A stretch of 64,000 nt of DNA from Bacilli bacterium (GTDB lineage Bacteria > Bacillota_I > Bacilli_A > RFN20 > CAG-826): contig JAGBLE010000010.1 of the NCBI GenBank assembly GCA_017635565.1, positions 21,833 through 85,832 of the forward strand, given 5' to 3'. The position numbers and the translations under genes are program-made. Positions 219-43,216 of this stretch are shown piece by piece; position 1 is the stretch's first letter; each line of letters starts with the position of its first letter. The notes beneath the pieces are model-generated. The model saw only the letters and a list, made by a program, of their open reading frames with translations. It was not told where the DNA came from and searched no databases.

Positions 219-1439
219 TTAGTCTTTTAAATCTTCAATCATTTTAAGGACAAGGAAGTTCCAACTCTGGAATCCTTTTCCTCTTACTCCTACTCCAGTT
301 TCAGAATCGTAATATTCATGGAATTCACCATTTAATTCAATATCACGTCCTAATAGTAGAATAGTCTTTTTAGCGATATCTTTAGCTAAATCTAAATATC
401 CATATTTTTTTAATCCAAGATAAGTAAAATAATTCGCATTAATCCAAATTGGTCCTAACCAACAAGATGGGTTTCCGGTATCAAAAATGCCAAACATCTT
501 TTCGTTTTTAGCAACTGATCTAATTCCATAATTAGAAAATAAACCATCTTTATTTAAATAACGCTTAATTACCATATCAGCGTTTTCTTTGCTAGCTATT
601 CCATTCCATAAAGGCAATAGACCTGCCCAAGTAGTAATTTTAATTGGTAAGGAGTGCCAAAAACGAGGATGACCTTTATGTAGCCAGACATTGTTATCAA
701 CTTTTCTTAAAGACAAATCAACCGAATAATAAAAACCGTCGACTTTATCAAAACATTCATTATTAATAGCGGCTTTTAATTGATTGGATTTGTCCAAATA
801 CTCTTTTTCGATATCTTTTTTGTTTAGCAAACCAGCAAGTTTAGAAACCGATAATAGTTCTTGATACATCAACGAATTAAGATAAATTGCTCCTGTTGAT
901 TTATCTGGTCGATAAAAGACTGATGGATCGTTATCAAACCCAATTGCAAGATCATCAATCCAATAAAAGAGGCCACTTTCTTCATCTTTTTGATTATTTT
1001 CGTAATAAGAAATGAATTTTAAAAGTTTATCAAAATATGGTTCTAACCATTTAATGTCTTTATAATTTTCAGATATCTCTAAAGCGTGAATCGCTAAACA
1101 AGGTTTATGAATATTACTTTTATAATTCTCATTTAAATCAAATATTGGGCTTGGATAATCTTGAACAAGGATTGGGATTCTTCCTTCTTCATCAATATGT
1201 TCAAGGAAATTTAAAACGCACCCTTTTTGATATTCTTCAATTTCCTTATCTTTAAGCGACATTAAAGCGTATCCAGTGAGCCAGCTATCCCAATCCCAAA
1301 GTTGATGGACATAGCCACTGCCAGGAACTAAGAATTTATGATTCAAATAACCAGGAACTGGTTCTCTAAAATTATTTCTATAATTTTTATAAACATAATC
1401 TTCAATTAAGGAAATATATTTTTTTAATTCTCTGTCCAT
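219..1439 (-). CDS. MGH1/GH63-like (alpha/alpha)6 glycoside hydrolase, cytoplasmic
   Basis: 406-aa ORF with an ATG start. The N-terminal PGSGYVHQLWDWDSW motif and overall helical-repeat character match the GH63 / mannosylglycerate-hydrolase-like family. No signal peptide. Confidence 0.6.
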   Translation of the reverse strand: MDRELKKYISLIEDYVYKNYRNNFREPVPGYLNHKFLVPGSGYVHQLWDWDSWLTGYALMSLKDKEIEEYQKGCVLNFLEHIDEEGRIPILVQDYPSPIFDLNENYKSNIHKPCLAIHALEISENYKDIKWLEPYFDKLLKFISYYENNQKDEESGLFYWIDDLAIGFDNDPSVFYRPDKSTGAIYLNSLMYQELLSVSKLAGLLNKKDIEKEYLDKSNQLKAAINNECFDKVDGFYYSVDLSLRKVDNNVWLHKGHPRFWHSLPIKITTWAGLLPLWNGIASKENADMVIKRYLNKDGLFSNYGIRSVAKNEKMFGIFDTGNPSCWLGPIWINANYFTYLGLKKYGYLDLAKDIAKKTILLLGRDIELNGEFHEYYDSETGVGVRGKGFQSWNFLVLKMIEDLKD

Positions 1440-1448
1440 ATTGTAATT

Positions 1449-2735
1449 TTATTTTAATAGACTCAAATAATATTTTGAATCCTTAAAAATTCCTCCAGAA
1501 CACGAATAAAATTCGTCGTTTAATGTATAGATGTATCGATATGGCTTAACAAAGCTCTTATCTTTTAAAGGATGAGCATCATACATTTTAATGTAATTTG
1601 CGTAATTTTGTTCTCCATTGCTTTCCAAAATGCCAACATTCATCTCTGGGAGTGAATTAATTCTTGAAGCAATGTTTTTATTCCACTCCACTAGAAGTGG
1701 ATTAACAGTTAAATCTGCACAGAAACAAATCACGTTATTTTCATGAGCGGCTTTTAATATTTTTAAAGTCTCACTTAGTGTTTTGGCAATTGGCTTTAAC
1801 GCAAATGCTTTATAGCCCAAAGACAATCTAATCTTAACATCTTTCAAAGAGTGCAAAGATTCATCTGCAACAATTCGTACAGGGAGACTAGAAACATCAA
1901 TTAAGTTGTTTTCTTCAAACGGCTCTTCAAATAAAACAATGTCATTTAAAAATCCATGTTCTTTAGCAAATTCAAGTAGGTTCTCTACTCTTTTTAAAGA
2001 ATCATATTTTCCGTTGGCGTCTAAATAATATAAGATGTGGCCATTTTTAGAATATTTGCTACGATAATTTTTAGCAATCTCGTGGATTTGTAATAATCTT
2101 TTCTTATCCCACTCCACCATCTCTTCTTTATCCATCTTTTTGTTATTATCAAAGCCGATTTTGATTTTAAGTAATGAAGCACCACCATCTAAAATATTCT
2201 TTATATCTTCTTCGCTCACTCCATAAGATATTAAAGGAATGTTGCACAAATATTGTTGTTTAGCTGATAAAGAAGATTGATATTCTTGAGGAACTAAATT
2301 AAAAAGATTTTCTTCTTTTTTGTTTTTACCATATAACTGCCATAAAGCATTATCAACCGCTACTAAAGCATTTCTCACAAACGTTTCTCTAATTTTGTCT
2401 TTAACATTTGTTAATGTCTTTGCGTAATCATAGACGCTTGGAAATATTAAATCCATTAATTCAATCGGGTTATTTCCTTCTTTTCCTACCAACTCATCTA
2501 GGGCGTAACTAGTTAATTCATACATATATTCGTTGCCCTTAGTTTCAGTATTGGAAACAAACACTTCAGCGTCAGACCACAAAACACTTTGTACCCCAAC
2601 ACCCACTCCAAAATTGTTTTCGTCTTCAACACGAACCACAACTTGCCATAATTCAGTCAAAAATCCACCTTTAAAACCAAGTGGAGATTTTAACTTTTCT
2701 GAAACATGTGTAATTTGAGTTCTTTTAATTTTCAT
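1449..2735 (-). CDS. enolase-superfamily enzyme, MLE subgroup (dipeptide-epimerase / racemase-like)
   Basis: 428 aa. Carries the KxK motif (LLKIKIG), metal ligands in YLDANGKY, FEEPF and ADES, and the strand-6 Lys in ALKPIAK. Overlaps the upstream gene by 11 nt. Confidence 0.65.
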   Translation of the reverse strand: MKIKRTQITHVSEKLKSPLGFKGGFLTELWQVVVRVEDENNFGVGVGVQSVLWSDAEVFVSNTETKGNEYMYELTSYALDELVGKEGNNPIELMDLIFPSVYDYAKTLTNVKDKIRETFVRNALVAVDNALWQLYGKNKKEENLFNLVPQEYQSSLSAKQQYLCNIPLISYGVSEEDIKNILDGGASLLKIKIGFDNNKKMDKEEMVEWDKKRLLQIHEIAKNYRSKYSKNGHILYYLDANGKYDSLKRVENLLEFAKEHGFLNDIVLFEEPFEENNLIDVSSLPVRIVADESLHSLKDVKIRLSLGYKAFALKPIAKTLSETLKILKAAHENNVICFCADLTVNPLLVEWNKNIASRINSLPEMNVGILESNGEQNYANYIKMYDAHPLKDKSFVKPYRYIYTLNDEFYSCSGGIFKDSKYYLSLLK

Positions 2736-3750
2736 TTAATATTACTCTCTTCTTTTCTCTTGATGATTGATAGGCCGCTAAAATAATGCGTACAGCTTTA
2801 GCTCCTTCATATTCATCAACAATCGGTTTTCTATTATTAATAATCGAATCAATTAAATCTTCGAATTGTAATTTGTGGTATTCGTATGGAAGAGCAAGGA
2901 AGTTCTTTCCAGTTTCTAATTTTGATTCATTAGAAGTAAGGTCATTTTTAGAATTAACATTCCATTCAATAATTGTATCTTCTTCTAAAACGATTCTTCC
3001 TTTTTCACCAATGAATTCAATTCGGCGTGGATATCCAGGCTTAGAAATAGTGTTACAGTTATAGTAACCAGTTGCTCCATTTTTAAAAGTGAGATTAATT
3101 AAAGCCGAATCTTCAACTTCAATATGGTGCATAACCGTTTCACATTTAGCATCGAGAGAAGCAACATCTCCAACAAGATATTGGATGAGATCAATCCCGT
3201 GAATCCCTTGATTCATAAGAGCGCCTCCTCCATCCATCTTCCAAGTGCCTCTCCATCCACTTGAAGAATAATATTCTTCATCACGATAATAATTCATAAT
3301 ATAGTTAACATTTTTAATGTTGCCTAATTCGTTATTATCGATCGCTTCTTTTATTCTACGAATTGATTCTGTAAATCTAAGTTGTGACACTACTTCAATT
3401 TTTACACCATTTTCTTTGATGACGCGTTGGACTTCTTGAATCTCTTCTTCTTTAATAACCATTGGCTTTTCGACAACGACATTCTTTTTTGCTTTTGCGG
3501 CTTCGATTATATATTGAGCATGTAATCCACTCGGAGTGCAAATATTGACTATGTCCACCATTGGATCGTGAAGGAGTTCTTCCAAAGATGAATAGGCTCT
3601 TGCCTCATTCTCCTTAGCAAAAGAGATGGCTTTAGATTGATTAGCATCAAAAACACCTACTAATTTCGCATTAGTAATATTTTTAATCGCTTCCTTATGT
3701 ATGTTAGCGATTCCACCACAACCAATTAAAGCAAATCCAAAAGTTTTCAT
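2725..3750 (-). CDS. Gfo/Idh/MocA family NAD(P)-dependent oxidoreductase
   Basis: Rossmann loop FALIGCGGIANIH and the EKP motif (VVEKPM). The track start at 3759 is TTG. The ATG at 3750 follows the upstream stop by 1 nt and is preferred. Confidence 0.8.
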   Translation of the reverse strand: MKTFGFALIGCGGIANIHKEAIKNITNAKLVGVFDANQSKAISFAKENEARAYSSLEELLHDPMVDIVNICTPSGLHAQYIIEAAKAKKNVVVEKPMVIKEEEIQEVQRVIKENGVKIEVVSQLRFTESIRRIKEAIDNNELGNIKNVNYIMNYYRDEEYYSSSGWRGTWKMDGGGALMNQGIHGIDLIQYLVGDVASLDAKCETVMHHIEVEDSALINLTFKNGATGYYNCNTISKPGYPRRIEFIGEKGRIVLEEDTIIEWNVNSKNDLTSNESKLETGKNFLALPYEYHKLQFEDLIDSIINNRKPIVDEYEGAKAVRIILAAYQSSREKKRVILNEN

Positions 3751-3751
3751 G

Positions 3752-4753
3752 TTAAGCAATTTTCGATAAGTTATCTAAATTAACTTCAGTTCTCATCTTT
3801 TCATTTCTAGTTAATCTTTCGATTTCTTCACAAACGTGAAGCGCAATTCTCTTCAAGCCATTAGAAACAGTTCCAGCAATATGTGGAGTTAAGATGACAT
3901 TATCTAATGTTCTTAATTCATTCTCTTTTAAAGGAGGTTCTGGATTAGTAACATCAATACACGCAGTAAATCGATTCTTTTTACATTCTTCGATTAAATC
4001 GTGTTCATTGATAATACTGCCACGGGCGGTATTAATTAAAACCGCTCCATCTTTAATCAACTTCAAATTATCTTTATTGAGCATGTTTTCTGTTGCTGGA
4101 ATAGCAGGAGCATGAACAGAAACAACATCACTAGTGGATAATAACTCATTTAATTCCACTTTACGTGCTCCCATTTCTTTAGCGGCTTCTTCACTTAAAT
4201 ATGGGTCATATACCAAAACATCAACATGGAAGTTTTGTAATAATTTAATCATGTGACGACCGACATAACCCGCTGAAATAACGCCAAAAGTAATGTCATA
4301 GAAATCTTTAACAACAGTTTTAATGTTTTCTTGCCACAATCCATTATGCGTATCTCTATTTAAAGAATAGAAACCTTTACAAGCGGAGATTGCAAACCCT
4401 AATGCAGATTCAGCAACGCCTTCTCCAATAGCAACCGCAGAATTAGTGATTCTAATTCTTTTAGCAACGAACTCATCTGAGATGATTGGCTTAATTGAAC
4501 CCGCTCCATGAATAACCGCTTTAAGATTTGGGCAAACATTTAAAACATCATTGTCAATTTTTGGGCTATCCCAACTTGTAACAATAATCGTTGATCCTTT
4601 GACGAAATCTAAATAATATTGGCGATCAGAAAAATCGGTATGGTCATAGATTTTCACCTCGCCACTTTTTCTTAATCGGTCATAATATTTTTCACTGAAA
4701 ACTCTATTTCTAAATTCTTCATTAACTAAAACACAAATTTTTTCCATATTCAT
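3752..4753 (-). CDS. D-isomer-specific 2-hydroxyacid dehydrogenase family protein
   Basis: 333 aa. Nucleotide-binding segment FGVISAGYVGRHM, and a C-terminal LTPHIAG motif typical of the family. The start overlaps the upstream stop (TAATG). Confidence 0.75.
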   Translation of the reverse strand: MNMEKICVLVNEEFRNRVFSEKYYDRLRKSGEVKIYDHTDFSDRQYYLDFVKGSTIIVTSWDSPKIDNDVLNVCPNLKAVIHGAGSIKPIISDEFVAKRIRITNSAVAIGEGVAESALGFAISACKGFYSLNRDTHNGLWQENIKTVVKDFYDITFGVISAGYVGRHMIKLLQNFHVDVLVYDPYLSEEAAKEMGARKVELNELLSTSDVVSVHAPAIPATENMLNKDNLKLIKDGAVLINTARGSIINEHDLIEECKKNRFTACIDVTNPEPPLKENELRTLDNVILTPHIAGTVSNGLKRIALHVCEEIERLTRNEKMRTEVNLDNLSKIA

Positions 4754-5700: not shown

Positions 5701-5705
5701 TTTAC

Positions 5706-35015: not shown

Positions 35016-35302
35016 CAATCATTTTTGCTATTTTTTCTTGATTACATCTATACTTTTTTAATTTTTACCCCAAATTTTTGTTTTAAAGATAAAAGTTCAA
35101 AATTAAAAGCACTAGTGTTTTTTGAAATGTCACTTGATGTAGTTTAATTATACGCATGCTCGTGCGTTATTATTTAATATGTTTATATAAGGGCTGTCTT
35201 AATAAAGGCGATTTTGAAATTTTTTTTCATTTTTTCCCTTAAATATATCTTTTTTTATTTTTTTGTTTGAAAATCAAAATTAAATTCTATAATAAAGTTG
35301 TT

Positions 35303-36120: not shown

Positions 36121-36684
36121 TCATTCCGCCGCTACTTTTTTTATTAGATTGGCTACTTCTTGAGCAACCTTATTTTTCCCTATTTCAGTTAGATGAATAT
36201 AATCATCATCACTTATCATTTCATCGATATCATCTTTAACAAATGAATATAAATCATTAATGATAATTCCTTTTTCTTTTAATAGAGGAACAATTTCTTT
36301 GTTATATCTTTCACAAGTTATATTTTCATTATCTGGATGTTTATCTTTTACCGGTGTAGTAGTCGCAAAAATCACTTTCCTTGAATATGAAAGTAATATA
36401 TCAGCAACTCTTAATATATTTTCTTTATATTCTTCTAAAGAAGTGAATGGTTTATTGTCTTTAAAAGGAAAAGCCATATCCCATAAACCATTATTCCAAT
36501 GAATAACATCAGCTCCTTGAAGTTTGTCTTTATAGTCGACAAGCATTCTTAAAGTATGTTTAACAAATCGACAATTTTCAGTTGGCTGCCAAATTTCAAA
36601 TTCATCACTTGAGAGATATTTTTCAATGACAGTGCCATAACCAACTTGGCGAATAGAATCACCGAGTAGAACAACTTTAATCAT
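36121..36684 (-). CDS. SGNH/GDSL-family hydrolase (esterase)
   Basis: Block I VVLLGDSI, a later GxND-like WNNGLWD, and a C-terminal DDYIHL (DxxH). ATGA overlap with the upstream gene. Confidence 0.75.
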   Translation of the reverse strand: MIKVVLLGDSIRQVGYGTVIEKYLSSDEFEIWQPTENCRFVKHTLRMLVDYKDKLQGADVIHWNNGLWDMAFPFKDNKPFTSLEEYKENILRVADILLSYSRKVIFATTTPVKDKHPDNENITCERYNKEIVPLLKEKGIIINDLYSFVKDDIDEMISDDDYIHLTEIGKNKVAQEVANLIKKVAAE

Positions 36685-39053
36685 TTCTTTTCATCCTCCA
36701 ATAAATATTCCCTAGAACTGATCCAGTATTCTTTTGATTCCACAGGAGCGTCATCAAGCTCCCAGTATTGAGTCATCATTCTTTCTTTTACAGGTTTATA
36801 AGCGCATTGGGAAAGATAATTTTTAAATGTATCTAAATCAATATTATTTTGCGGATCAAAATCATCACTAGAAGCATATTTCTCAATGAAGTTCTTCATT
36901 TCGATTGTAGAAGGCTCGTTTTCATCGATATGAGTGAGATTAAGTCCACACACGAGTAAAGGAGTGTTATTAACTTTTAATTCAAATAAATACGAGAAAT
37001 GCCTAAGTGTCCTATCAGGCATTAATTCAGGTAAATTGAATGATACTTTGTAAGCATCAAATCGGTCGCGATTACATTTATCAATACCGGTAATTAAAGA
37101 ACAAACTTTAATTGGGAAATCATCGAGAATGATTTTGTCTGAATCTTCAGAGATGACAGAATAATTGAAATCGTAATATTCACTGGTGAAGAAACCATAT
37201 TTATTTAATAATTCTTTTTTAACTAATCCGCCAAAATTAGTGCCTCTATCCCAGATAACTGGTTTAAAGCGATTCCATGTTGCCCTAAAAGCGTATTTTG
37301 GGGAAGGCATATTTTTATTTAACAAATGTCTTGTCCAATCACTACGATATATTAAAACGGTTTTCTTTCCTTTTTCTAAATTAGACAAAGCCCTTTCTAT
37401 ATCATCAGTTATTTCAAAAGATGCATTTGAGATATTAACAAATTCTTTGTATGTTGAAGTTGGATACTTTGGATAAATCCATAACGGCCATTCATTACTA
37501 TATTTTTTATTTTCCACTTTGAGTGAGACTTTAAAGACATATTTAGAGGAAGAACAAACATTTGGTAAATTGATTCGAAGAGAATATAAATCACTATTAC
37601 CGATTTTTATATTTGAGATAGTAACTTCTCCAGTAACAATAACTTCCTTTTCATCACTTAAACAATATTTTAATGTCGCCTCTTTAATTTCTTTTAAATA
37701 ATTAGAAGTTGAAATATTGATTTCAATTTCTTCATCAGAAGAATAGATCTTCTTTAAATCTGTTAATAAAACAAGTTCATCATTAAATGACAAAAATTGA
37801 AGAGGAATAACATAGTTAGAATCATCAAAGAAGTCCACTACTCCATTAGAATTTTCATATTTATCCGTATCAGCGAATTGAAGGAAATGGAATCCTCCTA
37901 ATATTGGAGATTTTCTAATCCTTTCAAAGGCTTCTTTCCAACAAATGTATTGAAAATATTTACTCGCTTCATACATCTTTTGATATTCATCATCCGAATA
38001 TCCTTTTTCTTTAATTAATTTAATTTCTTCATCAATCCACCAAGGAAGAGTGACGTTATTATCTAAGCATTTCTTTTTCAGAGCCTTGAAGTCTCTTAAA
38101 GCAGCGTAGTGACATATTTCATGAGCGATTAAAGGAACGTGGAACGGAGACTCATTATCTTTAAGATTTCCCAATTGATCTTTTAAAGTGTGAATTGTTT
38201 TTGGATTAGAATACATATCGCTATGAATTCCATATGGGAAGAAATATGAAAGATGTTGAACATCGATATCAATATTTGGTCGATCTAACTTTCCCCAAGC
38301 ACAGGTATCTAAGAATAATCTATTTGGATCTCTATGTTTTATATATTTACCAATTTCATCGCTTCTCTTATCAGCATCCAGTCCTTTAATTTCATTACCG
38401 ATACAATAAACCGCTAAAGAAGGGTGGTTATAATACGAATTGATAACATAATCAATAAAAGCATTAGGAACCAAATCTTTTTTAGAAAAGAGCATTTCTT
38501 CTAAATTATTGTAATCATCATTTGGTTGTCTTAACTCTAAATGAATTAATATTCCTTCTTCATCTGCAGCAGTAAATAGAGCTTCACTAGGAACGACGGA
38601 GTGGAATCTAATGAGATTAAATCCGTATTTTTTTGCTTGTCTAATATTTTTGCGATAGAATTCAATTTCGCTTAAGTTGAGATTGTTTTGATGCTCGTGA
38701 GCGGCCGCTCCACGAATATAACCCTTAATAAAAATTGCTCTATCGTTAAGAAAAACGTTTTTCTCATTATGTGACAATGTTCTAAAACCAAATGAACCAG
38801 TTATTTTTTCATCATCAAGTTCTAATTCATATTCATATAGATATGGGTTATTAATATCCCATAAGATTGGATTAGTGATAATAAATGAAAAAGAAAATGA
38901 ATCACTATTAAATGATTCATTAATGACAATATTTTCTTTTAAGACTTTAAAAACAACACTATTGACTACGGTTTTTGCTTTGACAAAAACATTCACTTTT
39001 CCACTTGTGTTAAATGAATCAATAAGAATAGTCGTGCCATTTTTACTAATCAT
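36681..39053 (-). CDS. GH2-like glycoside hydrolase (Ig-like domain plus TIM barrel) with a long C-terminal extension
   Basis: NPILWDINNPYLYEYELEL ... GFRTL ... VFLNDRAIFIKGYIRG ... NLIRFHS ... CIGNEIKG follows the GH2 pattern, including the acid/base NE. No signal peptide. Confidence 0.6.
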   Translation of the reverse strand: MISKNGTTILIDSFNTSGKVNVFVKAKTVVNSVVFKVLKENIVINESFNSDSFSFSFIITNPILWDINNPYLYEYELELDDEKITGSFGFRTLSHNEKNVFLNDRAIFIKGYIRGAAAHEHQNNLNLSEIEFYRKNIRQAKKYGFNLIRFHSVVPSEALFTAADEEGILIHLELRQPNDDYNNLEEMLFSKKDLVPNAFIDYVINSYYNHPSLAVYCIGNEIKGLDADKRSDEIGKYIKHRDPNRLFLDTCAWGKLDRPNIDIDVQHLSYFFPYGIHSDMYSNPKTIHTLKDQLGNLKDNESPFHVPLIAHEICHYAALRDFKALKKKCLDNNVTLPWWIDEEIKLIKEKGYSDDEYQKMYEASKYFQYICWKEAFERIRKSPILGGFHFLQFADTDKYENSNGVVDFFDDSNYVIPLQFLSFNDELVLLTDLKKIYSSDEEIEINISTSNYLKEIKEATLKYCLSDEKEVIVTGEVTISNIKIGNSDLYSLRINLPNVCSSSKYVFKVSLKVENKKYSNEWPLWIYPKYPTSTYKEFVNISNASFEITDDIERALSNLEKGKKTVLIYRSDWTRHLLNKNMPSPKYAFRATWNRFKPVIWDRGTNFGGLVKKELLNKYGFFTSEYYDFNYSVISEDSDKIILDDFPIKVCSLITGIDKCNRDRFDAYKVSFNLPELMPDRTLRHFSYLFELKVNNTPLLVCGLNLTHIDENEPSTIEMKNFIEKYASSDDFDPQNNIDLDTFKNYLSQCAYKPVKERMMTQYWELDDAPVESKEYWISSREYLLEDEKK

Positions 39054-39056: not shown

Positions 39057-40610
39057 TTAACGGATTCTATTTTCTGTTTCTTTGTCAAAGAAATAAATAT
39101 GTTGCAAATCAAAGGCCACTTTAATATCTTGACCGGTTTTAACTTCGTTCTTACTACTTGTTTTAAGTAAAATACGTTTTTCACCTAAATAGAAATAGAC
39201 GATTAATTCATAGCCAAGAAGTTCTGAAAAATCACATGTAGAAGAGATAGTTTCGCTTGGATTGGTGTTATTAACATCGCCATCTAAATAGACTTGTTCA
39301 GGCCTGACACCCATAATTAGTTCTTTTCCTTCATATCCTTCTAAACGTTTTTGATCTTCTTTAGAAACTTTGATTGATTCTCCACTTGAGAAAGTAACTT
39401 TTCCATTAGAATATGTGACATTTAAGAAATTCATACTAGGAGAGCCGATGAATCCTGCGACAAAGACATTATCAGGATTTTCATAAACTTCTTTTGGAGT
39501 GCCAATTTGTTTGACATAACCATCTTTCATAATGACAATTCTAGTCGCCATTGTCATCGCTTCGGTTTGATCGTGAGTAACATAAATCGTAGTCGCCCCG
39601 ACTCTCTCATGAATCTTAATGATTTCGCTTCTGGTTTGAACTCTAAGTTTAGCATCCAAGTTACTTAAAGGTTCATCCATCAAGAAAACTTTTGGCTTTC
39701 TAACAATTGCTCTACCTAAAGCAACTCTTTGACGTTGACCACCACTAAGAGCGGCTGGGCGACGATATAAATATTTAACTAAATCAATACTTTCTGCAGC
39801 CTTTTCAATTTCAATATCAACTTCTTCTCTAGTTGGTTTTCTAAAAACTTCTAAAGGCACTTCTGTTGTGCTGTAATATTGAACTTCTTCTTCTAAACGA
39901 GCAATTTGCAAATTGGTTATTCTTTTTTCTTCTTCAGCGCTTGCTAAGTCAAGCTTGAGAGTTTCTTCATTTTTTGAACCAGCTTCAATTTTTGATTTGA
40001 TACCATTAATTTCTTTTTCAAGAGAGACTAATTTCTTTTGCGCTTGAGCGAGTTCTTTACTCTTTTGATTGAGTTTAAAATTATCAATTCCAACTTTTTG
40101 AACTTGCTTAGAATTAATTTCATTTAATAAATCAAAATATTGCTTATATAACTCTTGTCTTTGATTTAAGAGTTCTTCGTTTTGTTGTTTGTTTTTATAT
40201 TTACGAGATACCTTCGCGATTTCTTTCCTAATAGCGGCTTTTTGTTGCATTAAAGGCAATAAATCCGGATTATCTTCATAAACCGGCTTAAATGTTTTTC
40301 TAAGTTTTAAAGCAAATGACATATTGTCATAGACGGTCATATGTGGATATAAGGCGTAGCTTTGGAAAACCATAGCAACATCACGGTCTTTTGGTTCGAC
40401 CGAATTAACTAAGCGGTCATCGATATAAAGCTCACCGCTAGAAATTTCTTCAAGTCCCGCCACCATTCTTAATGTTGTGGATTTACCACATCCAGAAGGT
40501 CCAACAAAGACGATAAACTCTTTGTCTTTAACCTCAAGGTTGAAGTCAAACACTGCTTGAACTCCATTAGGATAGATTTTGTTTAATCCAGAAAATTTAA
40601 TATTAGCCAT
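39057..40610 (-). CDS. MalK/MsmK/UgpC-type sugar ABC transporter ATPase with a ~150-aa coiled-coil insertion
   Basis: Walker A GPSGCGKST, Q-loop FQSYALYPHMTV, signature LSGGQRQR, Walker B VFLMDEPLSNLD, and a C-terminal MalK-like regulatory domain. 185 aa separate LKLRK from LSGGQ. GAGGA RBS. Confidence 0.85.
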   Translation of the reverse strand: MANIKFSGLNKIYPNGVQAVFDFNLEVKDKEFIVFVGPSGCGKSTTLRMVAGLEEISSGELYIDDRLVNSVEPKDRDVAMVFQSYALYPHMTVYDNMSFALKLRKTFKPVYEDNPDLLPLMQQKAAIRKEIAKVSRKYKNKQQNEELLNQRQELYKQYFDLLNEINSKQVQKVGIDNFKLNQKSKELAQAQKKLVSLEKEINGIKSKIEAGSKNEETLKLDLASAEEEKRITNLQIARLEEEVQYYSTTEVPLEVFRKPTREEVDIEIEKAAESIDLVKYLYRRPAALSGGQRQRVALGRAIVRKPKVFLMDEPLSNLDAKLRVQTRSEIIKIHERVGATTIYVTHDQTEAMTMATRIVIMKDGYVKQIGTPKEVYENPDNVFVAGFIGSPSMNFLNVTYSNGKVTFSSGESIKVSKEDQKRLEGYEGKELIMGVRPEQVYLDGDVNNTNPSETISSTCDFSELLGYELIVYFYLGEKRILLKTSSKNEVKTGQDIKVAFDLQHIYFFDKETENRIR

Positions 40611-40624: not shown

Positions 40625-41881
40625 TTATTGGTGCTTGATGTAAATTAGTTCTCCACCTTTTAATCGACTTTCTTCCGCTGCAAAGGCCATTAAATGTGAC
40701 TCAACCGAGGCTGCCAAAGTTGTGCTTCCAGGTTGAGTGGATAATAAATTGTTGTATAGCTCTCTTATTATACCAGCATCACCTCCACCGTGACCATCTT
40801 CTAGGTCGAGGAGGTTATCGATATTAATAATTTCTTTTTCTTTTCCAAAAACTCCAACTGTAATCGTATTGGCAAGTTCATCTAAATCAATTTGTCCATA
40901 TGTTCCATAGAATTTCAAAATTCTTCCGCCAGCTTTGCAGTTAGTAAAAGCGGTCATTCTTAAATTCGCGGTAACTCCATTTTCAAATCTCATCATTGTG
41001 ATTTGATTATCAACGACATTATTATCACATTTAAAAACGCATCTTCCATACGGGCTTGTTTTTAAAGCTTCCATAATATTTTCTTTACTCGCTACTCGTT
41101 CGTTAACAACCGATAAACGAGCGTTGAATCCTAAAACAGTGTAACCATATACCGCTGAATATGGGCAAGAATTAACATATTTACAATCTAAGCAACGATC
41201 TGCAGCTCCTTCAGGTTGATTTTCATGTTTGAAAAATCTTAAATCACCAATCGAAGAAATTGATTTGCATCTACTATTAGCGTACCAAGTTAATAGGTCC
41301 ATGTCGTGACAGCATTTCGCTAAAATCATTGGAGAAGTTTCATTGCTGTTTCTCCAGCAACCTCTAACAAAGCTATGTGCTTGATGGAAAAAGCCGACGT
41401 TTTCAATATCATCAATCATCACTAGTTGGCCAATTGTTCCAGCATCTAATAGTTTTTTTGCTTTTGTAAATGCAGGGGCGTATCTTAAAACGTGACAGAC
41501 AAAAATTTTGTGTCCATATTTTCTTTGAGGGTCCACTAATTCACGAACTTCGTTTTCAAGTCCTGAAATTGGTTTTTCACATAAAATGTCATAACCAAGT
41601 TTTAGACCCTTGATACAGTGTCCCACATGGTCTCTATCTTGAGTAGAAACAATTAAGATATCGCTTCTTTTTTCTTTGAAAAAATCTTCTTCATTATCAA
41701 AGCAAAGTGATTCATCTAATTTAAAATCATGCTTAGCAATATCAAGCCTTTTTTTATCAATATCACAAACAGATACAACCTTATAATGGTTTGGAGTATT
41801 ATACATCTCTTGAAGATATTCAATTCCACGATGTCCTAAGCCAATGCAGCTTGCAGTAAAAATCTTTTCCATATATGACAT
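40625..41881 (-). CDS. Gfo/Idh/MocA family oxidoreductase with a conserved Cys cluster (paralog A)
   Basis: IGLGHRG Rossmann loop, LCEKPIS, and the Cys cluster RCLDCKYVNSC ... GRCVFKCDN. Confidence 0.75.
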   Translation of the reverse strand: MSYMEKIFTASCIGLGHRGIEYLQEMYNTPNHYKVVSVCDIDKKRLDIAKHDFKLDESLCFDNEEDFFKEKRSDILIVSTQDRDHVGHCIKGLKLGYDILCEKPISGLENEVRELVDPQRKYGHKIFVCHVLRYAPAFTKAKKLLDAGTIGQLVMIDDIENVGFFHQAHSFVRGCWRNSNETSPMILAKCCHDMDLLTWYANSRCKSISSIGDLRFFKHENQPEGAADRCLDCKYVNSCPYSAVYGYTVLGFNARLSVVNERVASKENIMEALKTSPYGRCVFKCDNNVVDNQITMMRFENGVTANLRMTAFTNCKAGGRILKFYGTYGQIDLDELANTITVGVFGKEKEIINIDNLLDLEDGHGGGDAGIIRELYNNLLSTQPGSTTLAASVESHLMAFAAEESRLKGGELIYIKHQ

Positions 41882-41965
41882 TCTTTCTTTGTTAGATGCT
41901 TATATTTTAAATAATATAATTTGACAATTAAATATCATCACTTTTGATTTATTATTCAAAATTAA

Positions 41966-43216
41966 CTATTTATCGTGATTGATCACAATTCTTTCTCCAC
42001 CGTGTATCCTGCTCTTTTCAGCAGCGATTCCCATGAGGTGAGATTCAATTGAGACATCTAATAAGGAGATGTTTTTTGATTGTTCTTTAGTTAAAAAATC
42101 ATATAAGGACTCTACTATTCCGTGGTCTCCACCACCATGTCCATTTGTTGCATCAATCAAAGAAGATATTTGCGTAACTGTTTTTTCTTTTCCGAATGGC
42201 TTTAATTCAATTACACCTCTAGTTTCATCTAAATCGATTTGGCCATATGTTCCGTAAATTTTCATAATACGGCCACCACAGGCAGTAAAAGCAGTCATTC
42301 TTAAATTCGCAGTAATTCCATTTTTAAATCTCATCATTGTGATTTGATTATCAACTACATCATTATCGCATTCAAACACACATCTACCATATGGTCCGTT
42401 ATCTAACGATTCTCTTAAAGCTTCTTCAGTAATTGGTCTTTTATCAGTGACCGCAACTCTACCCCAGAAGTTTTGTTTGATATATAGTTCATAGGCATCA
42501 AAAACGCAAGAACCGCGATATTTACAGTCTTTGCATCTACTTGAAGCGCCTACTGGTTGGTTTTCTTTTTTAAAATATCTTAGGTCGCCAAGTGAAGAAA
42601 TTGATTCACATTTTGAATTAGCCAACCAAACAAGTAAATCTAAATCATGACAACACTTTGCTAAAATCATTGGTGCAGCTTCTTTGGTGGTTCTCCAATT
42701 GCCTCTAACATAGCTATGCGCTTGATGAGAATATCCAACATTTTCAATATCATCAATCATTACAACTTGGCCGATAACACCACTATCGACATATTCTTTG
42801 ATTGTCATAAACGCTGGAGCATATCTTAAAACATGGCAAATAACAACTTTATGTCCTGTTTCTTGTTGAACTTTCAAGAGTTCTTTTAATTCATCTTCTT
42901 TATCTGAAATTGGTTTTTCACATAGAATGTCATAACCAACTTTTAATCCTTTTAAGCAAAGCCTGACATGATCTTGATCGTTAGTCCCAACGATTAAAAG
43001 ATCACTTCTTTTTTCTTTAAAAAATTCATCTTCATCAGTGAATAAATTAGAACCCAAAACTCCGTAATTATTTTTGGCCAACTCTAATCTTTCGGTCTTT
43101 AAATCACACAAAGAGACAATTTTATATTTATCTTTGCCGAGTTTGAGCATCTCGGTCATATAAATATTTCCTCTTTGTCCAACGCCGATACAAGAAACGG
43201 TGATTGTTTTATTCAT
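41966..43216 (-). CDS. Gfo/Idh/MocA family oxidoreductase with a conserved Cys cluster (paralog B)
   Basis: IGVGQRG, LCEKPIS, and RCKDCKYRGSC ... GRCVFECDN. About 60% identical to paralog A by eye. GGGGGT RBS. Confidence 0.75.
   Translation of the reverse strand: MNKTITVSCIGVGQRGNIYMTEMLKLGKDKYKIVSLCDLKTERLELAKNNYGVLGSNLFTDEDEFFKEKRSDLLIVGTNDQDHVRLCLKGLKVGYDILCEKPISDKEDELKELLKVQQETGHKVVICHVLRYAPAFMTIKEYVDSGVIGQVVMIDDIENVGYSHQAHSYVRGNWRTTKEAAPMILAKCCHDLDLLVWLANSKCESISSLGDLRYFKKENQPVGASSRCKDCKYRGSCVFDAYELYIKQNFWGRVAVTDKRPITEEALRESLDNGPYGRCVFECDNDVVDNQITMMRFKNGITANLRMTAFTACGGRIMKIYGTYGQIDLDETRGVIELKPFGKEKTVTQISSLIDATNGHGGGDHGIVESLYDFLTKEQSKNISLLDVSIESHLMGIAAEKSRIHGGERIVINHDK

What the first reader, a model, noticed from the sequence alone, without database searches (positions are those of the whole stretch)
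219..43216. Same-strand ~43-kb glycan-utilisation supercluster built around an 18-gene, 26-kb tightly packed operon
From 43216 down to 219, every gene except the AraC regulator is on the minus strand. The stretch 26579 to 219 holds 18 ORFs separated by overlaps or gaps of 17 nt or less, with a single 71-nt gap at 8441-8511. ATGA- and TAATG-type junctions occur at 6842-6845 and 4753. The order is a lipoprotein SBP and two MalFG-type permeases, then three surface proteins, then only enzymes that lack signal peptides. Those enzymes are GH36, a heparinase II/III-like protein, a GH63-like protein, NagA, a TIM-NagB fusion, three dehydrogenase-type proteins and an enolase-family enzyme. Upstream blocks add two more surface proteins, a CE15-like esterase, an ADP-ribosylglycohydrolase-fold protein, AraC, a GH2-like enzyme, an SGNH esterase, a MalK-type ATPase and two more Gfo/Idh/MocA enzymes. 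This enzyme mix does not correspond to any single textbook pathway I can name. It combines an alpha-Gal/GalNAc-ase, amino-sugar deacetylase and deaminase, a lyase-like protein, a glucuronoyl-esterase-like protein and a DUF4838-like protein. My best guess for the substrate is a glycan containing amino sugars and uronic acids, and that is only a guess.
Basis: partly seen in the sequence, partly recalled or inferred. Interest (0 to 1): 0.6.

Follow-up and report, generated by a model that had tools for sequence, protein, structure and literature searches.

The report
Acquired complex-glycan utilisation island, gut bacterium
About 4% of this small gut-bacterial genome is a horizontally acquired set of some 31 genes that most likely captures, imports and dismantles an acidic, acetylated complex sugar polymer; the type of system is known, but this version is uncharacterised and its substrate is still unidentified.

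Summary
Three points need correction.
- Same-strandedness is ordinary here, because 81% of genes follow the contig's majority strand.
- Two of the 18 "enzymes" are an ABC ATPase and a 6-TM membrane protein.
- The GH36 is a classical alpha-galactosidase.

The region is a Gram-positive-type polysaccharide-utilisation island. It runs on to 47834, has at least 5 transcription units, and was not found in 22 congeners.

Functional coherence is supported. A horse-faeces Bacilli MAG carries about 20 of the same genes together in a different order. Subsets recur next to the 551-aa lyase-fold protein in many gut Clostridia and Bacilli.

The 18-gene operon is composite.
- A conserved 10-gene core: SBP, two permeases, a ~1000-aa surface protein, a DUF4838 lipoprotein, an Ig-stalk/beta-solenoid lipoprotein, a PF25840/41 lyase-fold protein, GH36, and the ABC ATPase/6-TM pair.
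- A separable amino-sugar/oxidoreductase module.

The same scaffold recurs in three more loci of this genome.

The substrate is unresolved. The evidence points to uronic acid, galactose, HexNAc, acetyl esters and probably rhamnose. No characterised orthologous locus was found. This is a new variant of a known kind, of moderate interest.

Two earlier notes of this scan on this same stretch are confirmed and extended.

The parts
45042..47834 (-). 930-aa cytoplasmic GH106-like protein (candidate alpha-L-rhamnosidase).
   Evidence: Pfam Glyco_hydro_106 at 38.4 bits (cut-off 29), but only the N-terminal ~80 residues match. A 52% orthologue heads the G062 supercluster.
44332..44973 (-). 213-aa SGNH/GDSL esterase
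   Evidence: Pfam Lipase_GDSL_2, E = 8e-20. A 35% relative lies between the TIM/NagB and NagA genes in L022.
43510..44331 (+). 273-aa BD-FAE / Abhydrolase_3 esterase
   Evidence: Pfam BD-FAE, E = 3e-17. A 38% relative lies beside the core in L003/L021.
40625..43216 (-). Two paralogous Gfo/Idh/MocA oxidoreductases of 416 and 418 aa, 58% identical to each other
   Evidence: Pfam. Closest solved structure is DgpA, weakly, at 3e-14. Paralogy shown.
39057..40610 (-). 517-aa MalK/MsmK-type ATPase with a ~150-aa Lys/Glu/Gln-rich insertion
   Evidence: Pfam ABC_tran + OB_MalK + TOBE_2. Sequence and three full-length paralogues.
36681..39053 (-). 790-aa GH2-like protein without the N-terminal sugar-binding domain
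   Evidence: Pfam GH2 Ig and TIM domains. NCBIfam BT4151-type profile, 1e-58, far below its cut-off. PDB 8u01 at 1e-30, then gut beta-glucuronidases. IGNE and AHEICHY motifs present. 50-56% relatives lie adjacent to relatives of the 551-aa protein.
36121..36684 (-). 187-aa SGNH-like esterase, overlapping the GH2-like gene by 4 nt
   Evidence: Weak Pfam hit. A 52% relative lies in L036.
35267..36097 (+). AraC-family regulator. Divergent from the 698-aa surface-protein gene and convergent with the upstream block.
   Evidence: Pfam HTH_18 + AraC_binding. A 63% paralogue lies beside the Rha/uronate genes on contig C20.
32831..34927 (-). 698-aa secreted protein with two copies of the G-T-L-D-G-R-G-H beta-solenoid module
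   Evidence: Signal peptide. Peptidase_M26_N-like hit. Paralogy to the 987-aa and 628-aa proteins.
32516..32830 (-). Intergenic region with intrinsic terminator(s) after the 698-aa gene
   Evidence: Hairpin TACCCC...GGGGTA followed by a T run.
31439..32515 (-). 358-aa cytoplasmic CE15 glucuronoyl-esterase-like protein
   Evidence: Pfam GCE_fung, 4e-30. GHSRGG nucleophile motif. A 59% orthologue lies in G062.
28403..31366 (-). 987-aa lipoprotein with two beta-solenoid modules
   Evidence: Lipobox ITAC. Paralogy.
28234..28402 (-). Strong intrinsic terminator after the 987-aa gene
   Evidence: AGAGCCAGAGT...ACTTTGGCTCTTTTAT.
26737..28233 (-). 498-aa cytoplasmic ADP-ribosylglycohydrolase-fold protein with a ~200-aa C-terminal extension
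   Evidence: Pfam ADP_ribosyl_GH, 8e-43. NDD and GDDTD metal motifs. 53-68% orthologues lie beside the core in 4 of 4 other genomes searched. 0 of 22 congeners have it.
24810..26579 (-). 589-aa lipoprotein substrate-binding protein; first gene of the conserved core
   Evidence: Lipobox. Weak NCBIfam carbohydrate-SBP hits. Its orthologue carries SBP_bac_8.
22946..24810 (-). Two CUT1-type ABC permeases (314 and 305 aa)
   Evidence: Pfam BPD_transp_1.
19855..22935 (-). 1026-aa surface protein of unknown fold; core member
   Evidence: N-terminal signal/anchor. No Pfam family above cut-off and no PDB sequence match. Orthologues in L002, L017, L020, L021. Two paralogues in the same genome.
17852..19837 (-). 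661-aa DUF4838 lipoprotein (GH163/GH185-like, GH20-related)
   Evidence: Pfam DUF4838, 2e-37, over the full domain. Family biochemistry in PMC10570127. Three paralogues in this genome.
15952..17838 (-). 628-aa lipoprotein: four Ig-like domains plus one C-terminal beta-solenoid module
   Evidence: AF2 model, pLDDT 87.7. Foldseek returns only Ig-repeat and S-layer matches. Motif FKGIFDGRGH at residue 470.
14291..15946 (-). 551-aa cytoplasmic (alpha/alpha)6-toroid + beta-sandwich lyase-fold protein (Pfam Ulvan_lyase_N/C)
   Evidence: Precomputed PF25840/PF25841. AF2 model, pLDDT 94.3. Foldseek matches to PL33, PL17, PL35, PL8, PL12 and PL15. 0 of 60 relatives have it.
11965..14289 (-). 774-aa GH36 alpha-galactosidase
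   Evidence: Pfam Melibiase, 2e-126. PDB 3mi6, 2e-162.
10379..11963 (-). 245-aa ABC ATPase and 290-aa six-TM protein; a cassette of unknown role that ends the conserved core
   Evidence: Pfam ABC_tran. TM prediction. Conserved in L002, L017, L019-L021, L039. Recurs in three more loci of this genome.
8512..10392 (-). 626-aa cytoplasmic heparinase II/III-like protein
   Evidence: Pfam Hepar_II_III_N + C. Absent from 5 other core-bearing genomes. Two of its 40-41% relatives examined, including the one named relative (Roseburia hominis), lie in capsule-biosynthesis clusters.
6842..8440 (-). 532-aa fusion of a xylose-isomerase-like TIM barrel and a NagB-type deaminase
   Evidence: Pfam. PDB 2bkv, 4.5e-25, for the NagB half. 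Also fused in G062. Two overlapping genes in human-gut contigs.
5706..6845 (-). 379-aa NagA-type amidohydrolase
   Evidence: Pfam Amidohydro_1. HTH motif. ~50% relatives follow TIM/NagB in more than 25 metagenome contigs.
2725..5709 (-). Gfo/Idh/MocA-like protein (318 aa, N-terminal domain only), D-2-hydroxyacid dehydrogenase (333 aa) and Gfo/Idh/MocA oxidoreductase (344 aa)
   Evidence: Pfam.
1449..2735 (-). 428-aa divergent enolase-superfamily protein
   Evidence: Pfam MR_MLE_C, 2e-5, below cut-off. Weak NCBIfam OSBS/racemase hits. PDB 1wue, 5e-4.
219..1439 (-). 406-aa GH63 / mannosylglycerate-hydrolase-like (alpha/alpha)6 protein; last gene of the operon
   Evidence: Pfam MGH1-like_GH, 1e-36. 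50-76% orthologues in 5 of 5 core-bearing genomes.
1..71 (-). tRNA-Ala(CGC) directly downstream of the operon
   Evidence: ARAGORN on L006. Sequence.

Best explanation
The stretch from 219 to 47834 is a horizontally acquired, Gram-positive-type polysaccharide-utilisation island of about 31 genes in at least 5 transcription units. It is built on an uptake scaffold that this lineage reuses. The scaffold consists of a lipoprotein SBP, two CUT1 permeases, a ~1000-aa surface protein, a DUF4838 lipoprotein, an ABC-ATPase/6-TM pair, and an MsmK with a coiled-coil-like insertion.

Inferred mechanism:
1. Surface proteins hold a complex acidic glycan. These are two beta-solenoid proteins, an Ig-stalk/beta-solenoid lipoprotein and the 1026-aa protein. 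The DUF4838 enzyme (GH20-related) trims the glycan.
2. The ABC importer takes up oligosaccharides.
3. Cytoplasmic exo-acting enzymes take them apart. These are a GH36 alpha-galactosidase, GH2-like, GH63-like, GH106-like and ARH-fold hydrolases, two uronate-lyase-fold proteins, and CE15, SGNH and BD-FAE esterases.
4. The TIM-NagB fusion, NagA and the Gfo/Idh/MocA and 2-hydroxyacid dehydrogenases process the amino-sugar part.
5. Uronate and rhamnose go to UxaC-UxuA-KdgK-Eda and RhaABD, which are encoded elsewhere in the genome.

What is shown: gene content, acquisition, the modular make-up, and conserved co-localisation in other genomes.

What is inferred: every enzymatic step, and the nature of the substrate. 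The substrate is most likely an O-acetylated heteroglycan carrying glucuronic acid, galactose, HexNAc and probably rhamnose. Its identity is not known.
For: - Gene families are established.
- Lipoboxes or signal peptides occur only on the SBP and five surface proteins. All enzymes other than the DUF4838 lipoprotein lack them.
- The lyase fold of the 551-aa protein rests on a model of pLDDT 94 with Foldseek matches to PL33, PL17, PL35, PL8, PL12 and PL15. Its Pfam labels are Ulvan_lyase_N/C.
- Acquisition: the 551-aa protein was found in 0 of 60 relatives and an ARH orthologue in 0 of 22 congeners. A DNA search of 22 congeners matches only GH36, MalK and generic ABC segments between 219 and ~45 kb. 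From ~47.9 kb onward the genes are conserved.
- Coherence: G062 carries GH106-like, CE15, GH63, two beta-solenoid proteins, ARH, GH2-like, the 10-gene core, MalK, BD-FAE and AraC on one contig. Shuffled subsets occur in Clostridia and Bacilli MAGs.
- Scaffold: three further loci in this genome share SBP, permeases, surface protein, DUF4838, ABC/6-TM and MalK, each with a different enzyme load. One carries GH38 and a GH36-like enzyme. One carries GH94, GH20, GH95 and GH29. One carries GH43-like and GHL6.
- Downstream pathways: RhaD-RhaB-RhaA and Eda-KdgK-UxaC lie on C20 with a TIM paralogue and an AraC paralogue, and UxuA lies on C6.
- Catalytic motifs are intact in CE15, ARH, the GH2-like protein and NagA.
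Against:
- The amino-sugar module is on another contig in G062 and missing from three of the four other core-bearing genomes searched. The heparinase-like gene is unique to this genome among those tested. Part of the island may therefore serve a different substrate.
- No GH88/GH105 was found to release unsaturated uronate (assembly 73% complete). A lyase route would need an unrecognised hydrolase.
- No shared operator was found in the promoter regions.
- Terminators split the region.
- Several assignments are weak: GH106 (N-terminal 80 residues only), the enolase-like protein (below cut-off), and the GH2-like protein (no N-terminal domain).
- The surface proteins have no demonstrable catalytic domain, apart from DUF4838.
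Confidence: 0.65

Rival explanations
1. Patchwork. The 43-48 kb is an accretion of unrelated sugar operons that sit side by side only because of strand bias and island growth. These would be alpha-galactoside uptake with GH36, an amino-sugar module, esterases, and Gfo/Idh/MocA enzymes. They would serve several different substrates under separate control.
For: - Strand bias makes co-orientation uninformative.
- Terminators follow two of the genes.
- No shared operator motif was found.
- The TIM-NagB/NagA/GFO module is on a different contig in G062 and recurs on its own in many human-gut contigs.
- The heparinase-like gene is absent from the other core-bearing genomes.
Against: - About 20 orthologues are again co-localised in G062 in a different order.
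- ARH and GH63 are present in 5 of 5 core-bearing genomes.
- GH2-like, ARH, GH63, NagA and TIM/NagB genes lie next to relatives of the 551-aa protein in distant Clostridia.
- The 18 genes form the tightest packing in the genome.
Confidence: 0.25
2. The substrate is a plant type-II arabinogalactan or gum-like glycan capped with Rha-alpha-1,4-GlcA. The lyase-fold protein, the rhamnosidase-like protein, CE15, the GH2-like protein and GH36 would dismantle imported side chains. This would parallel the Bifidobacterium and Bacteroides arabinogalactan systems.
For: - The 551-aa protein carries Pfam's 'ulvan lyase' labels, and ulvan lyases cleave Rha3S-GlcA/IdoA linkages.
- A GH106-like protein is present.
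- RhaABD sits next to UxaC/KdgK/Eda, UxuA is present, and there is a CE15.
- GH36 is used for alpha-Gal-1,3-Ara from gum arabic in bifidobacteria. A 98-kb Gram-positive cluster with one surface enzyme, ABC importers, about 20 cytoplasmic GHs and a cytoplasmic PL is a precedent (PMC13712309).
- The related contigs examined come mostly from herbivore guts (horse, roe deer, goat, sheep, yak), with others from human gut samples, including Hadza and Nepali cohorts, and chicken.
Against: - No recognisable beta-1,3- or beta-1,6-galactanase or arabinofuranosidase is in the island.
- No AraA was found in the assembly (73% complete).
- DUF4838, NagA and NagB point to HexNAc, which arabinogalactan proteins lack.
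- No GH88/GH105 was found.
Confidence: 0.22
3. The substrate is a microbial exopolysaccharide or capsule, or a glycoconjugate glycan. It would contain HexNAc, Gal, uronic or acetamido-uronic acid and rhamnose, with O-acetyl (and possibly phosphate) decorations.
For: - DUF4838 (Pfam family of GH163/GH185; its characterised members cleave beta-GlcNAc linkages), NagA and NagB are present.
- There are four esterases here. G062 adds two GxDLY-SGNH esterases, a CE4 deacetylase and a Y_phosphatase3 lipoprotein.
- An ARH-fold hydrolase is always present.
- Relatives of the heparinase-like protein lie in capsule clusters with UDP-sugar dehydrogenase and UDP-GlcNAc 2-epimerase.
- The sister scaffolds in this genome carry GH20, GH29, GH95 and GH38, enzymes typical of glycoconjugate glycans.
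Against: - No specific known repeat unit can be matched.
- CE15 and GH106-like proteins fit plant glycans at least as well.
- All of this is inference from family membership.
Confidence: 0.3
4. Host glycosaminoglycan utilisation (heparan/heparosan, hyaluronan or chondroitin), using the two lyase-fold proteins together with NagA and NagB.
For: - The heparinase II/III domains.
- The best structural matches of the 551-aa model are the GAG lyases PL33 and PL35.
- NagA and NagB are present.
Against: - Both lyase-fold proteins lack signal peptides.
- No GH88 and no sulfatase is in the window.
- The rhamnose, alpha-galactosidase, CE15 and acetyl-esterase content does not fit GAGs.
- The heparinase-like gene is not a conserved member of the system.
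Confidence: 0.07

Closest known systems
Bifidobacterium aerophilum type-II arabinogalactan utilisation cluster (PMC13712309)
   Same: - Gram-positive host.
- Very large same-locus assembly with few extracellular proteins.
- SBP-dependent ABC import of large oligosaccharides.
- Many signal-peptide-less exo-enzymes, including GH36, GH2, a rhamnosidase and one intracellular polysaccharide lyase.
   Different: - No GH43_24, GH30 or GH127-type arabinogalactan enzymes here.
- The lyase-fold protein is of the PF25840/41 type, not PL27.
- AraC regulator rather than LacI regulators.
- Extra DUF4838, ARH-fold, GH63-like, CE15 and NagA/NagB components.
- No sequence orthology was shown.
Ulvan utilisation locus of Formosa agariphila, with the PL37 member P29_PDnc (oligosaccharide dehydratase; PMC8511951) and PL40 lyases (PMC12915356)
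   Same: - A two-domain (alpha/alpha)6 + beta-sandwich protein of the uronate-lyase superfamily, working on oligosaccharides beside rhamnose- and glucuronate-handling enzymes.
- Pfam names the family of the 551-aa protein after ulvan lyases.
   Different: - Gut Firmicutes rather than marine Bacteroidota.
- No sulfatases and no GH105/GH88 here.
- The protein is cytoplasmic.
- A profile of the family did not match any PDB sequence of a lyase.
- Which CAZy PL family PF25840/41 corresponds to was not established here.
GH163 (BT1035, endo-beta-N-acetylglucosaminidase on complex N-glycans) and GH185 (Sp_0475, 6-sulfo-beta-GlcNAcase), the two characterised DUF4838 families (PMC10570127)
   Same: - A full-length DUF4838 domain.
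- The 661-aa protein is surface-located, as BT1035 is.
   Different: - Assignment to GH163, GH185 or neither was not tested.
- The paper stresses the wide diversity within DUF4838.
- Here the protein is a recurring scaffold member of four loci with different enzyme loads.
Gram-positive PULs (gpPULs) with CUT1 ABC importers energised by MsmK, as described in Firmicutes and bifidobacteria (general knowledge)
   Same: A regulator, an SBP, two permeases, a shared-type ATPase and CAZymes in one locus. Oligosaccharides are degraded in the cytoplasm.
   Different: - The size of the locus.
- The additional ABC-ATPase/6-TM cassette.
- The ~150-aa insertion in MsmK.
- The beta-solenoid surface proteins.
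- The ARH-fold partner.

Membership tests
Gram-positive polysaccharide-utilisation locus (gpPUL) | Co-localised regulator, carbohydrate transporter and at least one CAZyme | tested here: met
   AraC, SBP, two permeases, MalK, and GH36, GH2-like, GH63, DUF4838 and CE15.
Gram-positive polysaccharide-utilisation locus (gpPUL) | Co-regulated response to one glycan | not testable with these tools
The operator search was negative.
Single 18-gene operon | No internal terminator, and one evolutionary unit | tested here: inconclusive
   No convincing terminator lies between 26579 and 219. The block is nonetheless composite: genes 1-10 are conserved elsewhere, and genes 11-18 are not linked to them in other genomes.
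GH36 alpha-galactosidase (subgroup I) | GH36 N, catalytic and C domains, and close similarity to characterised AgaA/AgaB/MelA-type enzymes | tested here: met
   Pfam Melibiase at 2e-126. PDB 3mi6 at 2e-162 and 4fnq at 3e-154.
Pfam Ulvan_lyase_N/C (PF25840/PF25841) lyase-fold family | Matches to both family models | tested here: met
   Precomputed hits for the window's own protein and 119 relatives. The local Pfam copy returned no hit to these models.
Pfam Ulvan_lyase_N/C (PF25840/PF25841) lyase-fold family | (alpha/alpha)6 toroid plus antiparallel beta-sandwich architecture of uronate lyases | tested here: met
   Model of pLDDT 94.3. Foldseek probability 1.0 to PL33, PL17, PL35, PL8, PL12 and PL15, with TM ~0.5.
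Pfam Ulvan_lyase_N/C (PF25840/PF25841) lyase-fold family | Beta-elimination or dehydration activity on a uronic-acid glycoside | not testable with these tools
   Invariant His, Tyr, Arg, Asn and Cys columns are listed, but they were not mapped to a characterised active site.
Heparinase II/III-like (PL12/PL15/PL17/PL21-type) | Hepar_II_III_N and Hepar_II_III_C domains | tested here: met
   Pfam at 1.4e-16 and 1.6e-28.
Heparinase II/III-like (PL12/PL15/PL17/PL21-type) | Membership of a characterised lyase family and a catabolic context | tested here: inconclusive
   PDB heparinase III matches only at 1e-4. Two of its 40-41% relatives examined lie in capsule-biosynthesis clusters, so an epimerase-type role is possible.
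GH163 / GH185 (DUF4838) | DUF4838 catalytic domain | tested here: met
   Pfam at 2e-37, covering profile positions 2-324 of 325.
GH163 / GH185 (DUF4838) | Assignment to one of the two CAZy families, and beta-HexNAc-ase activity | not tested
   No PDB sequence match. No comparison with BT1035 or Sp_0475 sequences was possible.
CE15 glucuronoyl esterase | GCE domain with a G-x-S-R-x-G nucleophile motif | tested here: met
   Pfam GCE_fung at 4e-30. GHSRGG at residue 194.
ADP-ribosylglycohydrolase (ARH/DraG) fold | ADP_ribosyl_GH domain with the di-metal Asp/Thr motifs | tested here: met
   Pfam at 8e-43. NDD (residue 53) and GDDTD (263-267) motifs.
ADP-ribosylglycohydrolase (ARH/DraG) fold | ADP-ribose-type substrate | not testable with these tools
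   NCBIfam equivalogs (Tri1, DraG) score far below their cut-offs. The constant glycan-locus context suggests another substrate.
NagB glucosamine-6-phosphate deaminase | Glucosamine_iso domain close to characterised deaminases | tested here: met
   Pfam at 8e-14. B. subtilis NagB (2bkv) at 4.5e-25. Only ~32% identical to the stand-alone NagB of relatives.
GH2 | N-terminal sugar-binding domain, Ig-like domain and TIM barrel, with acid/base and nucleophile Glu | tested here: inconclusive
   The Ig and TIM domains and candidate NE / HE motifs are present, but the N-terminal domain is absent.
GH106 alpha-L-rhamnosidase | Match over the catalytic region | tested here: inconclusive
   Only residues 7-83 match the 743-position profile, although the score exceeds the cut-off.
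GH63 / mannosylglycerate-hydrolase-like | (alpha/alpha)6 catalytic domain of clan GH-G | tested here: met
   Pfam MGH1-like_GH at 1.4e-36 and Glyco_hydro_63 at 1.6e-19.

The most novel reading that the evidence does not exclude
The invariant companions of the core are the cytoplasmic PF25840/41 lyase-fold protein, the ARH-fold hydrolase and the GH63-like protein. Together they could form a so far undescribed cytoplasmic route for opening a uronic-acid-containing linkage that ordinary glycosidases do not cut. Examples would be a Rha- or HexN(Ac)-alpha-1,4-GlcA-X cap from plant arabinogalactan proteins or glycosyl-inositol-phosphoceramide head groups.

In this reading the ARH-fold protein acts as a glycosidase of a fold not yet in CAZy. 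The ABC-ATPase/6-TM cassette plus the coiled-coil MsmK would be obligatory parts of a new, reusable Gram-positive PUL scaffold.
Probability: 0.2. Interest if true: 0.75.

Novelty: new variant of a known kind. Interest (0 to 1): 0.5.

Why it matters
Small-genome, uncultured gut Bacilli are abundant in herbivores and in people on high-fibre diets, yet what they eat is largely unknown. This genome devotes about 4.4% of its 1.07-Mb assembly to one acquired locus. It also reuses the same uptake scaffold at least four times.

That gives three things.
- A concrete list of candidate new carbohydrate-active families to test: the PF25840/41 proteins of Firmicutes, an ARH-fold partner, a truncated GH2-like clade, the 1026-aa and beta-solenoid surface proteins, and an ABC/6-TM cassette.
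- A marker gene set for tracing this capability across gut metagenomes.
- A likely route to a selective substrate for enrichment or isolation, once the glycan is identified.

Tried and rejected
- **Promoter and terminator scan.** Promoter-like sites were fewer than in shuffled sequence, so the scan is uninformative in this AT-rich DNA.
- **Shared operator search.** I compared seven upstream regions with 14-mers allowing up to 2 mismatches. Nothing was shared by more regions than in shuffles.
- **PDB sequence searches.** The 551-aa, DUF4838 and 1026-aa proteins gave no hits. A family profile of the 551-aa protein matched only a short helical-repeat segment of GH76 mannanases, which I regard as non-specific.
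- **Left border of the island.** I tried to fix it with the neighbouring 692-aa gene (glutamine synthetase III). That gene is itself found in only 1 of 22 congeners, so it cannot serve as an anchor.
- **TIM-NagB fusion as a frameshift artefact.** Rejected. The junction differs by several substitutions, not a homopolymer slip, and G062 has the same uninterrupted fusion.
- **628-aa lipoprotein as a glycanase.** Rejected for now. The model shows an Ig stalk plus a beta-solenoid, and no enzyme-like structural match was found.
- **GH36 as an alpha-GalNAc-ase.** Rejected.
- **Host GAG utilisation as the main reading.** Considered unlikely; see the rival explanations.
- **Same-strand arrangement as evidence of a unit.** Rejected.
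- **Contig labels as taxonomy.** Several of the most similar contigs are labelled Parasutterella, Paludibacteraceae, Holdemanella or Acidiphilium. These labels look like binning or labelling errors, so I did not use them.

Full report
**Observation**

- From 43216 down to 219 every gene except the AraC gene (35267-36097) is on the minus strand.
- From 26579 to 219 there are 18 ORFs. Their junctions are overlaps or gaps of 17 nt or less, apart from one 71-nt gap at 8441-8511.
- The ATGA junction at 6842-6845 and the TAATG junction at 4753 are there.

The window is G000:C31:21833-85832 of a 1.07-Mb, 31-contig, 73%-complete, 33% G+C assembly.

Co-orientation is not evidence of anything here. 81% of ORFs follow their contig's majority strand, and 101 of 119 do on this contig. 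Three same-strand runs elsewhere in the genome are longer. The tight packing is exceptional. The 11-gene and 7-gene runs with gaps of 17 nt or less are the longest and joint second longest in the assembly.

**Gene content**

Corrections:
- 11226-11963 encodes a 245-aa ABC ATPase and 10379-11251 a six-TM protein, not enzymes.
- The GH36 is a classical alpha-galactosidase (2e-162 to PDB 3mi6).
- The unplaced 551-aa protein carries the recent Pfam models Ulvan_lyase_N/C. It models with pLDDT 94 as an (alpha/alpha)6 toroid plus beta-sandwich. The best structural matches are PL33, PL17, PL35, PL8, PL12 and PL15 lyases.
- The 628-aa lipoprotein is four Ig-like domains plus a C-terminal beta-solenoid. 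It shares that ~200-aa module, with the motif G-T-L-D-G-R-G-H, with the 698-aa and 987-aa surface proteins.
- DUF4838 is the catalytic domain of GH163 (BT1035, which cuts GlcNAc-beta-1,2-Man in N-glycans) and of GH185 (a 6-sulfo-GlcNAcase) (PMC10570127).

Lipoboxes or signal peptides occur only on the SBP and the five surface proteins. Catalytic or metal motifs are intact in the CE15 (GHSRGG), the ARH-fold protein (NDD, GDDTD), the GH2-like protein (IGNE, AHEICHY) and NagA (HxH).

**Borders and transcription units**

- Downstream of the GH63-like gene there is a weak hairpin, then tRNA-Ala(CGC), then housekeeping genes: LysR, glutamine synthetase III and adenylosuccinate synthetase.
- Upstream of 43216 the carbohydrate genes continue with a BD-FAE esterase, an SGNH esterase and a GH106-like protein, up to 47834. 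The island is thus about 47.6 kb, or 4.4% of the assembly.
- Strong intrinsic terminators follow the 987-aa and the 698-aa genes.
- The AraC gene is convergent with the block 43216-36121.
- There are therefore at least five units:
  1. 43216-36121
  2. the 698-aa gene
  3. CE15 plus the 987-aa gene
  4. the ARH-fold gene, possibly joined to the next unit
  5. the 18-gene run
- I found no operator shared between their upstream regions.

**Acquisition**

- The 551-aa protein was found in none of 60 relatives: 22 congeners, 14 other genera of the family, and the rest from the same order.
- An ARH-fold orthologue was found in 0 of 22 congeners.
- The TIM-NagB fusion is not in any of the 60 relatives, which only have a ~32%-identical stand-alone NagB.
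- DNA searches of the 22 congeners match only GH36 (~67%), MalK paralogues and generic ABC motifs between 219 and ~45 kb.
- From ~47.9 kb onward (ROK kinase, a second NagA-like amidohydrolase, Lgt, an FeS flavoprotein, GdhA) the genes are conserved across the genus.
- The island's G+C is like the rest of the genome. The donor was probably a similar low-G+C Firmicute.

**Is it one functional system?**

The 551-aa family is large. The 80 best loci are mostly from gut Clostridia and Bacilli of herbivores, chickens and humans.

A tblastn survey with all window proteins gave the following (gene calls).
- A 10-gene core is kept in the same order in L002, L017 and L021 (=L003), and is seen in part, or with small rearrangements, in L019, L020 and L039. 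It runs SBP, permease, permease, ~1030-aa surface protein, DUF4838, ~630-aa lipoprotein, lyase-fold protein, GH36, ABC ATPase, 6-TM protein.
- What follows the core differs between genomes.
- The GH2-like (50-56%), ARH-fold (52%), GH63-like (49-61%), TIM/NagB plus NagA (49-50%), SGNH and AraC genes turn up next to relatives of the 551-aa protein in other Clostridia, in shuffled orders.

In G062 (horse faeces, 'Bacilli bacterium') one contig carries the following, in this order:
- GH106-like (52%)
- two GxDLY-SGNH esterases
- a CE4 deacetylase
- a Y_phosphatase3 lipoprotein
- CE15 (59%)
- GH63 (76%)
- two beta-solenoid surface proteins
- ARH (68%)
- GH2-like (50%)
- the 10-gene core
- MalK
- a further Gfo/Idh/MocA protein with a GH109-type C-terminal domain
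- BD-FAE
- AraC

ARH-fold and GH63-like orthologues are present in 5 of 5 core-bearing genomes, counting this one. This conserved neighbourhood in changed order is the main argument that the supercluster is a real functional unit.

**The composite operon**

Genes 11-18 of the tight run are not linked to the core elsewhere.
- The heparinase-like gene is absent from five other core-bearing genomes.
- Two of its 40-41% relatives were examined: the one named relative (Roseburia hominis, 41%) and one unnamed relative (40%). Both lie, as paired genes, in capsule-biosynthesis clusters with UDP-sugar dehydrogenase and UDP-GlcNAc 2-epimerase.
- The TIM-NagB/NagA/Gfo-Idh-MocA module is on another contig in G062, where TIM and NagB are also fused into a 544-aa ORF.
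- In more than 25 metagenome contigs, several of them labelled human gut, the module recurs as GFO, GFO-like, TIM, NagB, NagA, GFO. There TIM and NagB are separate genes overlapping by ATGA.
- Its neighbours in those contigs include the ARH-fold gene, a GUS-like GH2, a GH1, SBP and permeases, and in one contig UxuA, an SDR and Eda.

The fusion is therefore real, and it was seen only in this genome and G062 among the 60 relatives and five core-bearing genomes searched.

**A reused scaffold**

Within this genome three more loci share the same scaffold. This consists of SBP, permeases, a ~1000-aa surface protein, DUF4838, ABC ATPase, 6-TM protein, and a MalK with the same ~150-aa Lys/Glu-rich insertion; the C10 locus has other surface lipoproteins in place of the ~1000-aa protein and DUF4838. 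Their enzyme loads differ.
- C31:101.5-119.2 kb carries a GH36-like enzyme, GH38, two GFO proteins and a TIM barrel.
- C12 carries GH43-like and GHL6 enzymes and a second DUF4838.
- C10 carries GH94, GH20, GH95 and GH29.

DUF4838, the 1026-aa protein and the ABC/6-TM pair thus look like generic uptake-apparatus parts. Substrate specificity would lie in the cytoplasmic enzymes and the beta-solenoid proteins.

**Substrate**

- For uronic acid:
  - Two lyase-fold proteins and a CE15 are in the island.
  - Eda-KdgK-UxaC lies on C20, next to a TIM paralogue (45-47%) and an AraC paralogue (63%).
  - UxuA lies on C6.
- For rhamnose: the GH106-like gene, and RhaD-RhaB-RhaA adjoining the uronate genes.
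- For galactose: GH36 and the GH2-like protein.
- For HexNAc: DUF4838, NagA and NagB.
- For O-acetyl or other esters: four esterases.
- Against a simple lyase route: no GH88/GH105 in the assembly.
- Against arabinose-rich arabinogalactan: no AraA and no recognisable galactanase or arabinofuranosidase.
- Against host GAGs: no sulfatase, both lyase-fold proteins cytoplasmic, and the rhamnose and esterase content.

I could not match the set to any characterised locus. The nearest analogue in design is the bifidobacterial type-II arabinogalactan cluster. It has one surface enzyme, ABC import of large oligosaccharides, and about 20 cytoplasmic GHs plus one cytoplasmic PL (PMC13712309).

PL37, whose member P29_PDnc is an oligosaccharide dehydratase acting on non-reducing GlcA (PMC8511951), is a functional lead for the 551-aa protein. 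I did not establish which CAZy family PF25840/41 represents.

**Verdict**

The interpretation as a coherent glycan-utilisation supercluster is supported by comparative genomics. The caveat is that the 18-gene operon is a recent join of a conserved core and a separable amino-sugar module.

It is a new variant of a known kind of system (gpPUL). It has several components of unknown function that recur together, and these are worth biochemical work. Confidence in the general mechanism is 0.65. Confidence in any single substrate is no more than 0.3.

Earlier notes of this scan on the same stretch are confirmed and extended here: the beta-solenoid paralogue family and the unplaced 551-aa Cys-rich protein.

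Noticed in passing
window 39057-40610; also G000 C31:103729-105285, C3:51722-53323, C10:28490-30019: The MalK/MsmK ATPase carries a ~150-aa Lys/Glu/Gln-rich, coiled-coil-like insertion (about residues 105-255) inside the nucleotide-binding domain. Three other full-length paralogues in the genome (54-56% identical) have it too.
   Followed up: partly
window 10379-11963; G000 C31:105438-106983, C12:24522-27144, C10:25716-28365: A 240-250-aa ABC ATPase plus a ~280-aa six-TM protein recurs in four sugar loci of this genome and in the core of other genomes. The TM protein has conserved LPxTR(K/R)xQFF and FDKYINKxNY motifs and no Pfam family. In two of the four loci, two small TM proteins lie between the pair.
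   Followed up: partly
G000 C31:101525-119232, C12:15283-33276, C10:8173-31243: Three further loci are built on the same scaffold (SBP, permeases, ~1000-aa surface protein, DUF4838 and so on). Their enzyme sets differ: GH38 with a GH36-like enzyme, GFO and TIM; GH43-like with GHL6; and GH94 with GH20, GH95 and GH29.
   Followed up: partly
window 6842-8440: The TIM-barrel/NagB gene fusion is shared with a horse-faeces Bacilli MAG (G062:C34:55554-57164, 63%). In the metagenome contigs examined, several labelled human gut, the two halves are separate genes overlapping by ATGA.
   Followed up: yes
G000 C20:12686-24182 (L099 687-12285): One string holds RhaD, RhaB, RhaA, PMI, ROK, Eda, KdgK, UxaC, an RDD membrane protein and a 394-aa TIM barrel (45-47% identical to the TIM half of the fusion). 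An AraC paralogue follows (63% aa, 69% nt identity to the window's AraC). Joint regulation with the island is possible.
   Followed up: partly
window, many start sites (e.g. upstream of 1439, 8440, 6845, 32515): Many genes of the island have no recognisable Shine-Dalgarno sequence before the start codon. Others, such as 17838 and 19837, have a strong one.
   Followed up: no
L181 (Roseburia hominis CP159990.1:1519864-1541801) and L182: Pairs of heparinase II/III-like genes sit inside capsule/EPS biosynthesis clusters with UDP-sugar dehydrogenase, Wzx, glycosyltransferases and UDP-GlcNAc 2-epimerase. There they may act as uronyl C5-epimerases or chain-length lyases rather than catabolic lyases.
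   Followed up: no
G000 C31:12867-16573 (L006 10665-14374): A cytoplasmic GH38 alpha-mannosidase and a GH29 alpha-L-fucosidase lie about 7 kb beyond the tRNA-Ala, separated from the island by housekeeping genes.
   Followed up: no
window 34928-35266: The divergent AraC/698-aa intergenic region contains a GCACTCA...TGAGTGC hairpin followed by a (CTT)6 repeat. The repeat gave short, perfect, low-complexity DNA matches in many congeners.
   Followed up: partly
L018, L019, L020, L028 (record titles): Contigs with 59-60% (L028: 44%) identical relatives of the 551-aa protein, most with parts of the core locus alongside, are deposited under Holdemanella, Paludibacteraceae, Parasutterella excrementihominis and Acidiphilium MAG names. 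These are probably binning or labelling errors in the public records.
   Followed up: no
L002 15596-16783 and L183 6647-7927: A Y_phosphatase3-domain protein lies beside CE15 in two related loci (a lipoprotein in L002) but is absent from this window. It hints at a phosphate ester in the substrate.
   Followed up: no
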